Shown piece after piece: positions 4,210-6,038 of a stretch of 64,000 nt of DNA; position 1 is the stretch's first letter; each line of letters begins with the position of its first letter. Origin of the DNA: Escherichia coli (GTDB lineage: Bacteria; Pseudomonadota; Gammaproteobacteria; Enterobacterales; Enterobacteriaceae); assembly GCF_029227855.1 (NCBI RefSeq), contig NZ_CP074356.1. One strand, given 5' to 3'. The notes under the pieces are model-generated. The model did not search any database and had not been told where the DNA came from. It saw only the letters and a list, made by a program, of their open reading frames with translations. Position numbers and translations under genes: made by a program.

Positions 4210-5241
4210 ATGTCTGCATTTACCCCGGCAAGTGAAGTCTTGCTGCGTCACAGTGATGATTTCGAACAAAGCCGTATTCTGTTTGCCGGAGACTTACAGG
4301 ATGACCTGCCCGCGCGTTTAGATACCGCGGCCAGCCGTGCTCATACCCAGCAATTCCACCACTGGCAGGTATTAAGCCGCCAGATGGGGGATAACGCCCG
4401 TTTCAGTCTGGTCGCCACGGCGGATGACGTCACAGATTGCGATACGCTGATTTACTACTGGCCGAAGAACAAACCGGAAGCCCAGTTCCAGTTGATGAAT
4501 TTACTTTCTCTGCTGCCGGTGGGCACGGATATTTTTGTCGTTGGCGAGAACCGCAGCGGCGTGCGCAGCGCCGAGCAGATGCTGGCAGATTATGCGCCGT
4601 TGAATAAAGTGGACAGCGCTCGTCGCTGTGGCCTCTATTTTGGTCGTCTGGAAAAACAGCCAGTATTTGATGCCGATAAATTCTGGGGCGAATACAGCGT
4701 CGATGGCCTGACGGTCAAAACGCTGCCGGGCGTGTTTAGCCGCGACGGTCTGGATGTCGGTAGCCAGTTACTGCTCTCGACGTTAACTCCGCACACGAAA
4801 GGTAAAGTGCTGGATGTCGGCTGTGGCGCGGGCGTGCTTTCTGTTGCCTTTGCGCGCCATTCGCCGAAAATTCGTCTCACTCTGTGCGATGTCTCTGCGC
4901 CAGCGGTAGAAGCCAGCCGCGCAACACTTGCGGCCAACGGTGTTGAAGGTGAAGTCTTTGCCAGTAACGTCTTTTCCGAGGTGAAAGGTCGTTTTGATAT
5001 GATCATCTCCAACCCGCCGTTCCACGATGGGATGCAAACCAGCCTCGATGCGGCGCAAATGCTGATTCGCGGCGCGGTGCGTCATCTTAATAGCGGCGGC
5101 GAGCTGCGAATTGTAGCGAACGCCTTCCTGCCTTATCCGGACGTGCTGGATGAGACATTTGGCTTCCACGAAGTGATCGCGCAAACCGGGCGCTTCAAGG
5201 TGTATCGCGCCATTATGACCCGCCAGGCGAAGAAAGGTTAA
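4210..5241 (+). CDS. rsmC: 16S rRNA (guanine1207-N2)-methyltransferase
   Basis: 343 aa, SAM-binding [11 protein letters not shown] and NPPFH motifs; divergent from holD. Confidence 0.9.
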
Positions 5242-5371
5242 GTATCTGATATCTGTCGCCGCATACCGTGTCGGATGCGGCGTACACGACTTCTCTGACC
5301 GACAAACGAATTATCCACAATCCGCTGATGGACATTTTTCCAGCAATTACACCTCCGGCGATAATTAACTA

Positions 5372-5399
5372 TTGACGAAAAGCTGAAAACCACTAGAAT
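5372..5399 (+). promoter_or_regulatory. Sigma70 promoter of the tRNA-Leu operon (TTGACG -35, 16-nt spacer, TAGAAT -10, GC-rich discriminator)
   Basis: ttgacgaaaagctgaaaaccactagaat followed by gcgcctccg about 40 nt upstream of the first tRNA; AT-rich tract upstream. Confidence 0.55.
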
Positions 5400-5440
5400 G
5401 CGCCTCCGTGGTAGCAATTCTTTTTAAGAATTGATGGTAT

Positions 5441-5527
5441 GCGAAGGTGGCGGAATTGGTAGACGCGCTAGCTTCAGGTGTTAGTGTCCTTACGGACGTG
5501 GGGGTTCAAGTCCCCCCCCTCGCACCA
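5441..5527 (+). tRNA. leuV: tRNA-Leu (anticodon CAG), copy 1 of 3
   Basis: 87-nt GCGAAGGTGGCGGAATTGGTAGACGCG...CCTCGCACCA with CTTCAGGT anticodon loop; gene name assigned by operon position only. Confidence 0.9.
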
Positions 5528-5555
5528 AAAACCACGTTGATATTGCTCGCACTGG

Positions 5556-5642
5556 GCGAAGGTGGCGGAATTGGTAGACGCGCTAGCTTCAGGTGTTAGT
5601 GTTCTTACGGACGTGGGGGTTCAAGTCCCCCCCCTCGCACCA
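5556..5642 (+). tRNA. leuP: tRNA-Leu (anticodon CAG), copy 2 of 3, with one C-to-T difference in the variable arm
   Basis: Same 87-nt sequence except GTTCTTACGGAC instead of GTCCTTACGGAC. Confidence 0.9.
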
Positions 5643-5676
5643 AACGAGGCGATATCAAAAAAAGTAAGATGACTGT

Positions 5677-5763
5677 GCGAAGGTGGCGGAATTGGTAGAC
5701 GCGCTAGCTTCAGGTGTTAGTGTCCTTACGGACGTGGGGGTTCAAGTCCCCCCCCTCGCACCA
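5677..5763 (+). tRNA. leuQ: tRNA-Leu (anticodon CAG), copy 3 of 3
   Basis: Identical to copy 1. Confidence 0.9.
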
Positions 5764-5801
5764 ATTATCTTTACTTCCTTTCTTGTTTCTTCCCTGTTTT
5801 A

Positions 5802-6038
5802 TCATCCCTGATTCAAATTCATTAGCATCAGCATGATGCCAGCACTAAGCGCCAGGCACGATGGCAGCAAAACGTAATGCCGCAACTGTTTGTGATACAG
5901 CATCACCGGCGTCAATATTAATCCCATCAGAATGACAATCCGCCACTGATCCGGCGATAAATCCGCATACATCAGCCCTGCAATCAGCAATCCCGGCAGC
6001 AACACTCCCCAGCCACTGCCCAGCGTACGTTGCAACAT
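5802..6038 (-). CDS. yjjZ: Small inner-membrane protein YjjZ
   Basis: ORF 5802..6149; the 78-aa form MLQRTLGSGWGVLLPGLLIAGL... starts at an internal Met; divergent from fhuF. Confidence 0.5.
   Translation of the reverse strand: MLQRTLGSGWGVLLPGLLIAGLMYADLSPDQWRIVILMGLILTPVMLYHKQLRHYVLLPSCLALSAGIMLMLMNLNQG

What the first reader, a model, noticed from the sequence alone, without database searches (positions are those of the whole stretch)
5441..5763. Tandem triplet of tRNA-Leu(CAG) genes with one variant copy
Three 87-nt tRNA-Leu genes sit 28-34 nt apart behind a strong stringent-type promoter. The middle copy has a single C-to-T change in the variable-arm stem (GTCC to GTTC), converting a G-C pair to G-U, which is presumably tolerated. 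Tandem identical tRNAs are recombination-prone and copy number can vary between strains.
Basis: seen in the sequence. Interest (0 to 1): 0.2.

Follow-up and report, generated by a model that had tools for sequence, protein, structure and literature searches.

The report
Known E. coli leuQ-leuP-leuV tRNA operon
This is the well-studied E. coli operon of three tandem leucine-tRNA genes (leuQ-leuP-leuV); the one-base difference in the middle gene is the normal, ancient leuP allele, so the finding is correct but ordinary.

Summary
Three 87-nt tRNA-Leu(CAG) genes lie at 5441-5527, 5556-5642 and 5677-5763, with 28- and 34-nt spacers. The only difference is C->T at gene position 48 (window 5603) in the middle copy, turning a variable-arm G-C pair into G-U. 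The locus is the rsmC / leuQ-leuP-leuV / yjjZ-fhuF region of E. coli. K-12 MG1655 has the same C-T-C pattern, and the leuP difference is already published. The T allele occurs in 4,852 of 5,426 complete E. coli genomes. Copy number does vary: about 92% of genomes have at least 2 tandem copies and about 8% have one (mostly O157:H7). Rarer arrays (C-C-C, C-T-T, T-T-C, T-C, C-C, single T) show both gene conversion and unequal crossover. The promoter (TTGACG-16-TAGAAT plus GCGCCTCC discriminator) is conserved out to Morganellaceae and matches the literature on the FIS-activated, stringently controlled leuV promoter. The one mildly new result is that C-T-C is the ancestral, prevailing state across Enterobacteriaceae genera (49 of 59 arrays in an allele-blind sample). 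Each tRNA is also bracketed by conserved flank pairings in the precursor. Verdict: real, already known, low interest.

The parts
5333..5347 (+). Conserved upstream block CATTTTTCCAGCAAT, about -75 to -61 from the inferred start site; candidate FIS site
   Evidence: The block is conserved across Enterobacteriaceae genera in the upstream alignment. [quoted passage not shown] Assigning this block to FIS is an inference.
5363..5371 (+). A/T-rich block AATTAACTA directly upstream of the -35 hexamer (UP-element-like)
   Evidence: Nearly invariant in Enterobacteriaceae. Its function is inferred.
5372..5377 (+). -35 hexamer TTGACG
   Evidence: Promoter scan. TGACG is invariant from Escherichia to Morganella.
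5394..5399 (+). -10 hexamer TAGAAT, with a 16-bp spacer from the -35
   Evidence: Conserved as TAGAAT or TAAAAT across genera.
5400..5407 (+). G+C-rich discriminator GCGCCTCC, as in stringently controlled stable-RNA promoters
   Evidence: Sequence, conserved across genera. Titles of the leuV promoter papers cited in held papers describe growth-rate and stringent control.
5408..5440 (+). 33-nt 5' leader, with the inferred +1 at G5408
   Evidence: PMC2965240 describes the leuV fragment as -112 to +33, with +1 to +33 being the natural leader. The start position in the window is inferred from that.
5415..5433 (+). Leader hairpin CAAUUCUU-UUU-AAGAAUUG
   Evidence: 94.7% of cells pair, against 29-55% for slid controls. 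Two pairs show compensatory double changes, and 0 of 500 shuffles reach the observed score. It is present in the unconstrained fold of the transcript.
5441..5527 (+). tRNA-Leu(CAG) copy 1 = leuQ (promoter-proximal), C at position 48
   Evidence: K-12 gene names and order come from NC_000913.
5528..5555 (+). Spacer 1 (28 nt), CCA followed by AAAACC with no U
   Evidence: Identical to K-12. 71-100% conserved across genera.
5556..5642 (+). tRNA-Leu(CAG) copy 2 = leuP, T at position 48 (window 5603), giving a G-U pair in the variable-arm stem
   Evidence: The difference is published for K-12.
5643..5676 (+). Spacer 2 (34 nt)
5677..5763 (+). tRNA-Leu(CAG) copy 3 = leuV, C at position 48
5764..5850 (+). 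Pyrimidine-rich, G-poor trailer with no hairpin terminator; the presumed Rho-dependent termination zone, running antisense into the 3' end of yjjZ
   Evidence: No + strand intrinsic terminator was found. Composition of 5764-5800 is C9 G2 T23 A3. PMC2190699 reports Rho-dependent termination and trailer removal by PNPase and RNase II.
4210..5241 (+). rsmC, the upstream flanking gene (context only)
   Evidence: ORF. Annotation of matching genomes.
5802..6038 (-). yjjZ, the convergent downstream gene (context only)
   Evidence: Coordinates inferred from the K-12 spacing and the ORF ending at 5802. Annotated in all matches.

Best explanation
The region is the E. coli leuQ-leuP-leuV operon, which supplies three of the four genes for the major leucine tRNA, tRNA-Leu1 (anticodon CAG, reading CUG). 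A strong stable-RNA promoter drives one tricistronic transcript that starts at about G5408. The promoter has a -35 TTGACG, a 16-bp spacer, a -10 TAGAAT and a GC-rich discriminator, and is activated by FIS from an upstream site. According to published experiments on K-12, RNase P alone separates the three tRNAs and creates their 5' ends. Transcription ends Rho-dependently in the unstructured, C/U-rich trailer, which exonucleases trim back to the encoded CCA. The middle gene, leuP, encodes an isodecoder with U instead of C in the third pair of the variable-arm stem (G-U instead of G-C). This is the normal allele, inherited from the ancestor of the Enterobacteriaceae, and not a lesion. Because the three genes are near-identical 87-bp direct repeats, unequal crossover and gene conversion occasionally change copy number or move the marker base. 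That produces the minority arrays seen in other strains. Shown here: gene identity, the variant, synteny, promoter conservation, and population and cross-genus distributions. Taken from the literature: FIS activation, RNase P dependence and Rho-dependent termination. Inferred: that both isodecoders are charged and used equivalently.
For: Synteny with rsmC, yjjZ and fhuF holds in 5,425 of 5,426 genomes, and K-12 annotates leuQ, leuP and leuV in this order. K-12 has the same C-T-C alleles, 8-C runs and 28/34-nt spacers. The T allele is in 4,852 of 5,426 genomes, usually once per genome. The C allele is in 5,425 genomes with a median of 3 copies. At least 2 tandem copies are present in 4,998 genomes. 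Alternative arrays were read directly: O157:H7 LSU61 has C; strain 5132 has T-C; Z1323CEC0010 has C-C; W444 has T-T-C; Nissle 1917 has C-T-T; O55:H7 CB9615 has C-C-C; O157:H7 TR01 has C-C; EcPNK004 has T. Across genera, the array is rsmC-linked with the pattern '= | C48T | =' in many genera. An allele-blind scan gave 49 of 59 C-T-C, including 19 of 26 arrays whose RsmC is only 84-91% identical. Literature support: RNase P-only processing and Rho-dependent termination (PMC2190699; PMC7049720); a single-nucleotide LeuP difference (PMC12472396); leuP listed apart from leuQ/leuT/leuV; the FIS site and promoter fragment.
Against: Nothing contradicts the identification. There are weak points. Expression and charging of the leuP isodecoder were not measured here. 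The Rfam model cannot score the variable arm. Single-sequence thermodynamic folding does not recover the cloverleaf for any copy, and it predicts a lower variable-stem probability for the U form, 0.22 against 0.95. The primary promoter papers could not be read, so regulation rests on citing papers and titles.
Confidence: 0.97

Rival explanations
1. The middle copy is a decaying or pseudogene copy whose weakened variable arm makes it non-functional.
For: The G-U pair costs 2.9 kcal/mol in the cloverleaf. In silico it lowers the variable-stem pairing probability from 0.95 to 0.22.
Against: The copy has the same covariance-model score as the others and is called by ARAGORN. The rest of the 87 nt is intact. 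The allele is kept in 89% of E. coli genomes, in the same gene position across many genera, and is the only form at the leuT-type locus of most other genera. In Enterobacter-type arrays all three copies carry one G-U in this stem. A pseudogene would accumulate further changes, and none are seen.
Confidence: 0.02
2. The C-to-T difference is a private mutation of this strain or a sequencing error.
For: None beyond it being a single base.
Against: A query that can only seed on the T allele matches 4,852 of 5,426 genomes. K-12 MG1655 carries it, and it is published.
Confidence: 0.01
3. The T in the middle gene is a selectively neutral relic. It persists only because gene conversion between 87-bp repeats is rare, and it has no functional or structural role.
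For: E. coli lineages without any T allele are viable and successful, notably O157:H7 (about 8% of genomes) and O55:H7 with C-C-C. The marker does move (T-T-C, C-T-T, C-C-T) in a few percent of arrays. My own knowledge, not tested here, is that E. coli LeuRS does not read the variable-arm sequence.
Against: Unconstrained DNA upstream of about -80 cannot be aligned between these genera, so neutral sites are saturated. Yet in the allele-blind sample, 19 of 21 native-layout spacer haplotypes keep T48 in the middle copy. None has T48 in copy 1, and 4 have it in copy 3. If C were simply better, T in copy 2 should have been replaced. If C and T were equivalent, copies 1 and 3 should have drifted. 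All homogeneous arrays in that sample are restructured arrays with spacer 2 repeated.
Confidence: 0.45

Closest known systems
E. coli K-12 leuQ-leuP-leuV operon (b4370-b4369-b4368), also called the leuV or tRNA-Leu1 operon
   Same: Same flanking genes, gene order, tRNA sequences, C-T-C alleles, spacer lengths and sequences, and promoter hexamers.
   Different: Essentially nothing differs. The 1.4-kb region is 96-97% identical to K-12-type genomes and 99.9% identical to strain JNEC-KY178. The differences lie outside the tRNA genes.
argX-hisR-leuT-proM operon, which holds the fourth tRNA-Leu(CAG) gene
   Same: It encodes the same tRNA-Leu1. In E. coli leuT has the C form.
   Different: It is a mixed four-tRNA operon elsewhere on the chromosome and is processed by RNase E. 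In most other genera its Leu gene carries the T form.
Other RNase P-dependent tandem tRNA operons, such as valV-valW
   Same: These are also tandem near-identical tRNAs with short U-poor spacers, Rho-dependent termination, and separation by RNase P alone.
   Different: Different tRNA species and copy number. The flank-pairing architecture seen here was not examined for them.

Membership tests
tRNA (Rfam RF00005), class II tRNA-Leu(CAG) | Cloverleaf scoring above the curated threshold | tested here: met
   48.5 bits against a gathering score of 29 for all three copies. ARAGORN calls all three.
tRNA (Rfam RF00005), class II tRNA-Leu(CAG) | Anticodon CAG | tested here: met
   ARAGORN places anticodon cag at position 35 in all three copies.
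tRNA (Rfam RF00005), class II tRNA-Leu(CAG) | Long variable arm with a base-paired stem | tested here: met
   A 15-nt arm with a 4-bp stem. The third pair is C-G in copies 1 and 3 and U-G in copy 2. Across 44 sequences all four pairs stay standard pairs.
tRNA (Rfam RF00005), class II tRNA-Leu(CAG) | Discriminator A73 and encoded 3' CCA | tested here: met
   Each gene ends ...TCGC-A-CCA. The role of A73 in LeuRS identity comes from my own knowledge.
tRNA (Rfam RF00005), class II tRNA-Leu(CAG) | Aminoacylation with leucine and use in translation | not testable with these tools
   This needs charging assays or isodecoder-resolved tRNA-seq.
E. coli leuQ-leuP-leuV operon | Location between rsmC and yjjZ-fhuF | tested here: met
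E. coli leuQ-leuP-leuV operon | Three tandem genes with a single-base difference in the middle gene | tested here: met
   Published in PMC12472396.
E. coli leuQ-leuP-leuV operon | RNase P-dependent, RNase E-independent separation, and Rho-dependent termination | not testable with these tools
   The sequence is consistent. There is no U directly after the CCA of copies 1 and 2 (CCAAAAACC, CCAAACGAG), and no hairpin terminator.
Stable-RNA promoters under growth-rate and stringent control with FIS activation | Near-consensus hexamers with a 16-bp spacer and a G+C-rich discriminator | tested here: met
   TTGACG, 16 bp, TAGAAT, GCGCCTCC, conserved across genera.
Stable-RNA promoters under growth-rate and stringent control with FIS activation | Upstream FIS site or A/T-rich UP-like element | tested here: inconclusive
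   Conserved blocks lie at 5333-5347 and 5363-5371, and the literature places a FIS site about 70 nt upstream. No binding-site model was run.
Stable-RNA promoters under growth-rate and stringent control with FIS activation | Inhibition by ppGpp/DksA and growth-rate dependence | not testable with these tools
   Only titles of the primary papers were reachable.

The most novel reading that the evidence does not exclude
The alternating C-T-C arrangement is not a tolerated blemish. It is a selectively maintained feature dating back at least to the Enterobacteriaceae ancestor. There are two candidate reasons. The cell may benefit from keeping both isodecoders, or a single mismatch between neighbouring 87-bp repeats may protect the array from recombinational or slippage collapse. 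For the second idea, every homogeneous array in the allele-blind sample was restructured, and the O55:H7 C-C-C lineage gave rise to the collapsed O157:H7 arrays. Alongside this, conserved pairings between the flanks of each tRNA organise the tricistronic precursor for RNase P-only processing.
Probability: 0.35. Interest if true: 0.4.

Novelty: already known. Interest (0 to 1): 0.15.

Why it matters
The finding itself is textbook. These genes supply the tRNA for CUG, the most used codon in E. coli, and the operon is a classic model for stable-RNA promoters and RNase P processing. The useful outcome is a clean negative: the variant copy is the standard leuP allele, so no annotation or biological alarm is warranted. 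Two by-products could interest specialists in tRNA genes. First, the one-base heterogeneity and its position in the middle gene are conserved across genera whose neutral DNA is saturated. That gives a natural test case for how tandem tRNA arrays escape homogenisation or collapse. Second, the spacers, leader and trailer form conserved, partly covarying helices bracketing each tRNA. This may explain why the operon is processed by RNase P alone.

Tried and rejected
(1) Unconstrained folding of each 87-nt tRNA did not return the cloverleaf and gave weak z-scores. I replaced it with energies evaluated on the cloverleaf.

(2) The Rfam score cannot serve as a pseudogene test, because the variable arm is an insertion in RF00005 and all copies score the same.

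(3) The junction queries J1 and J2 were meant to count spacer 1 and spacer 2 separately, but each aligns across the other spacer at about 83% identity. I therefore reinterpreted the coverage count of 4,998 as 'at least 2 tandem copies', and the 80-90% identity bands as arrays lacking one spacer type.

(4) The query for T in the last copy is confounded by trailer divergence, since 817 genomes fall below 80% coverage. Only a lower bound of about 25 genomes, in the Nissle 1917 / ATCC 25922 group, is claimed.

I corrected this with an allele-blind metagenome scan.

(6) The primary papers (Duester 1981, Ross 1999, Pokholok 1999) are not held.

(7) Protein-level tools, structure prediction and the phage and plasmid collections were not used, because nothing protein-coding or mobile is involved. 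The short ORFs overlapping the tRNAs are artefacts of the ORF listing.

Full report
OBSERVATION. ARAGORN finds exactly three tRNA genes in the window. All are tRNA-Leu(CAG), 87 nt, on the + strand, at 5441-5527, 5556-5642 and 5677-5763. Rfam's tRNA model scores each at 48.5 bits against a threshold of 29. Aligning the three copies shows one variable column, position 48, which reads C, T, C; the T is window base 5603. The spacers are 28 and 34 nt.

IDENTITY. A 1.4-kb query around the genes matches 5,425 of 5,426 complete E. coli genomes. The annotated neighbours are always rsmC upstream and yjjZ-fhuF downstream. In K-12 MG1655 the three genes are leuQ (next to the promoter), leuP and leuV. K-12 carries the same C-T-C alleles, the same 8-C runs and the same 28- and 34-nt spacers. 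The single-base leuP difference is already in the literature. [quoted passage not shown] A tRNA-seq preprint lists (leuP) apart from (leuQ leuT leuV). An older processing paper treats the genes as identical.

IS THE VARIANT A DEFECT? The Rfam model cannot tell, because it treats the variable arm as an insertion. On the cloverleaf, the U form is 2.9 kcal/mol less stable (-27.1 against -30.0) but keeps a standard G-U pair. Population data settle the question. I used a 55-nt query centred on the variant, so that every 28-base megablast seed must contain it. The T form is found in 4,852 of 5,426 genomes (89.4%), usually once per genome. The C form is found in 5,425 genomes with a median of three copies, which correspond to leuQ, leuV and leuT. 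The variant is therefore the normal leuP allele.

COPY NUMBER AND RECOMBINATION. Spacer-junction queries show at least 2 tandem copies in 4,998 genomes (92.1%). A local check showed that either query aligns across either spacer, so this count means 'at least two copies'. About 427 genomes (7.9%) have a single copy at the locus, and the sampled cases are mostly O157:H7. Twenty-two records lack a spacer-1 junction and 14 lack a spacer-2 junction.

Allele-by-position queries give T in the first copy in 61 records. C follows spacer 1 in about 108 records, calculated as 561 minus 453 partial matches. T is in the last copy in at least 25 records.

Loci read directly show these arrays:
- C-T-C in K-12 and the window
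- C-T-T in Nissle 1917
- C-C-C in O55:H7 CB9615 and in one MG1655 assembly
- T-T-C in W444
- T-C in strain 5132
- C-C in Z1323CEC0010 and in O157:H7 TR01
- a single C in O157:H7 LSU61
- a single T in EcPNK004
.

Arrays with unchanged spacers but a moved marker indicate gene conversion or point change. Arrays that lost one spacer indicate unequal crossover on one or the other side of position 48. A laboratory deletion of all three genes is viable but costly in rich medium (PMC9981150). The 8-C run in these genes is a documented indel hotspot in mismatch-repair-deficient lines (PMC8510543). This probably explains the 86- and 88-nt copies seen in some assemblies.

PROMOTER, LEADER AND TERMINATION. 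The scan finds TTGACG, 16 bp, then TAGAAT at 5372-5399, followed by GCGCCTCC. I aligned the 140 nt upstream of the first tRNA from 18 taxa. The -35, the -10, the discriminator, an A/T-rich block at 5363-5371 and a block at 5333-5347 are all conserved, while sequence further upstream is unalignable. Held papers describe the leuV fragment from -112 to +33 as a stable-RNA promoter with an upstream FIS element that enhances initiation (PMC2965240). They also describe a FIS site about 70 nt upstream of the leuQ start (PMC9122604). Titles of the primary papers name FIS activation and growth-rate and stringent control, but those papers could not be read. The 33-nt leader places +1 at G5408. No intrinsic terminator follows the third gene on the + strand. 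The first 37 nt of trailer contain 9 C and 2 G. This matches the published Rho-dependent termination, with the trailer removed by PNPase and RNase II and RNase P alone separating the tRNAs (PMC2190699; PMC7049720).

BEYOND E. COLI. I scanned one genome per species for the T-allele motif. In Enterobacteriaceae the rsmC-linked array is typically three genes identical to E. coli's except for C48T in the middle one. This holds in Escherichia albertii, Salmonella enterica arizonae, Citrobacter, Klebsiella, Raoultella, Kosakonia, Pseudocitrobacter, Phytobacter and others. Rare exceptions are C-C-T and T-T-C arrays. The solitary Leu(CAG) gene in the argX-hisR-leuT-proM-type operon carries the T form in most of these genera, including Escherichia whittamii, whereas E. 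coli's leuT carries C. Morganellaceae have rsmC-linked two-copy arrays with one T and one C copy.

That scan could only find arrays containing a T. I therefore ran an allele-blind pattern for any triple array against metagenome contigs. Of 59 arrays, 49 are C-T-C. These include 27 of 29 Escherichia-like arrays and 19 of 26 arrays whose RsmC is only 84-91% identical to the window's. Grouped by spacer haplotype, 19 of 21 native-layout haplotypes keep T48 in the middle copy. None has T48 in copy 1. One has the neighbouring C49T in the middle copy instead. The three homogeneous arrays all repeat a spacer-2-type spacer, so they are contracted and re-expanded arrays.

The inference is that C-T-C is ancestral and unusually stable. 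If G-C were simply better, the middle T should have been replaced. If the two were equivalent, copies 1 and 3 should have drifted. Some form of selection on the arrangement is therefore plausible. It is not proven, because the sequences are related by descent and T-less E. coli lineages thrive.

SIDE OBSERVATIONS ON THE PRECURSOR. The spacers are 71-100% identical across genera. An 8-bp leader hairpin at 5415-5433 pairs in 94.7% of cells, against 29-55% when the partners are slid. It shows A-U to U-A and G-C to A-U double changes. Each tRNA is also bracketed by pairing of its flanks:
- 5408-5412 with 5531-5535
- 5539-5549 with 5645-5656
- 5665-5672 with 5765-5772

On 67 distinct precursors the four helices together pair in 95.3% of cells, against 29-54% for slid controls. 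The covariation score is 0.174 against a shuffled mean of 0.101, with 0 of 500 shuffles as high. Six pairs show double changes, three of them in the third bracket. RNAalifold and an unconstrained fold of the whole transcript recover these helices independently. Support is good for the leader hairpin and the third bracket. For the first two brackets it rests mostly on conservation and one-sided changes.

VERDICT. The feature is real, exactly as described, and already known: it is the leuQ-leuP-leuV operon with its standard leuP allele. Interest is low. The only mildly new points are the deep, position-specific conservation of the one-base heterogeneity and the conserved flank pairings.

Noticed in passing
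window 5415-5433: The 5' leader contains a conserved 8-bp hairpin (CAAUUCUU-UUU-AAGAAUUG) ending 7 nt before the RNase P site. Its sequence changes in a compensatory way between genera (A-U to U-A in 30 of 67 precursors, G-C to A-U in 15). Morganellaceae have a different hairpin at the same place.
   Followed up: yes
window 5408-5412 with 5531-5535; 5539-5549 with 5645-5656; 5665-5672 with 5765-5772: Each of the three tRNAs is bracketed by pairing between its 5' and 3' flanks. The spacers are 71-100% conserved across genera, which is unexpected for intergenic DNA. Covariation is clear for the third bracket and mostly one-sided for the other two. I did not find this described in the papers read.
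   Followed up: partly
window 5445/5519, 5560/5634, 5681/5755 (tRNA positions 5 and 79): All three copies have an A-C mismatch at acceptor-stem pair 5:79, flagged by cmscan. The same pair is G-U in Morganellaceae. In Enterobacter/Lelliottia-type arrays it is C-C or A-U. It is never simply fixed to a G-C pair.
   Followed up: partly
L128 (O55:H7 CB9615), L129 (O157:H7 TR01), L002 (O157:H7 LSU61): The O55:H7 strain has a homogenised C-C-C array. One O157:H7 strain has C-C and typical O157:H7 strains have a single C. This looks like loss of the marker followed by stepwise collapse along one lineage.
   Followed up: partly
L141, L178, L145 (metagenome contigs): The only homogeneous arrays in the allele-blind sample (C-C-C, C-C-C, C-C-C-C) carry the spacer-2-type spacer at every junction. 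The array therefore contracted and then re-expanded by duplicating one unit.
   Followed up: partly
L008, L037, L059, L121 and about 40 other loci: In most Enterobacterales other than E. coli, the Leu(CAG) gene of the argX-hisR-leuT-proM-type operon carries the T form. These genera therefore encode the two isodecoders 2:2, against 1:3 in E. coli.
   Followed up: partly
L005 (W444, third copy 86 nt), L127 (MG1655 CP025268, third copy with 9 C), L063, L073, L104: Some assemblies show one C more or fewer in the 8-C run of a copy. This run is a published indel hotspot, so these may be real mutations or homopolymer sequencing errors.
   Followed up: no
window 5244-5325: The intergenic stretch between rsmC and the promoter contains a REP-like palindrome (GCCGCATACCGTGTCGGATGCGGCG, about 5259-5283). 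In about 1,290 genomes the alignment starts only at window 5244, 5263 or 5325, so this stretch varies between strains.
   Followed up: no
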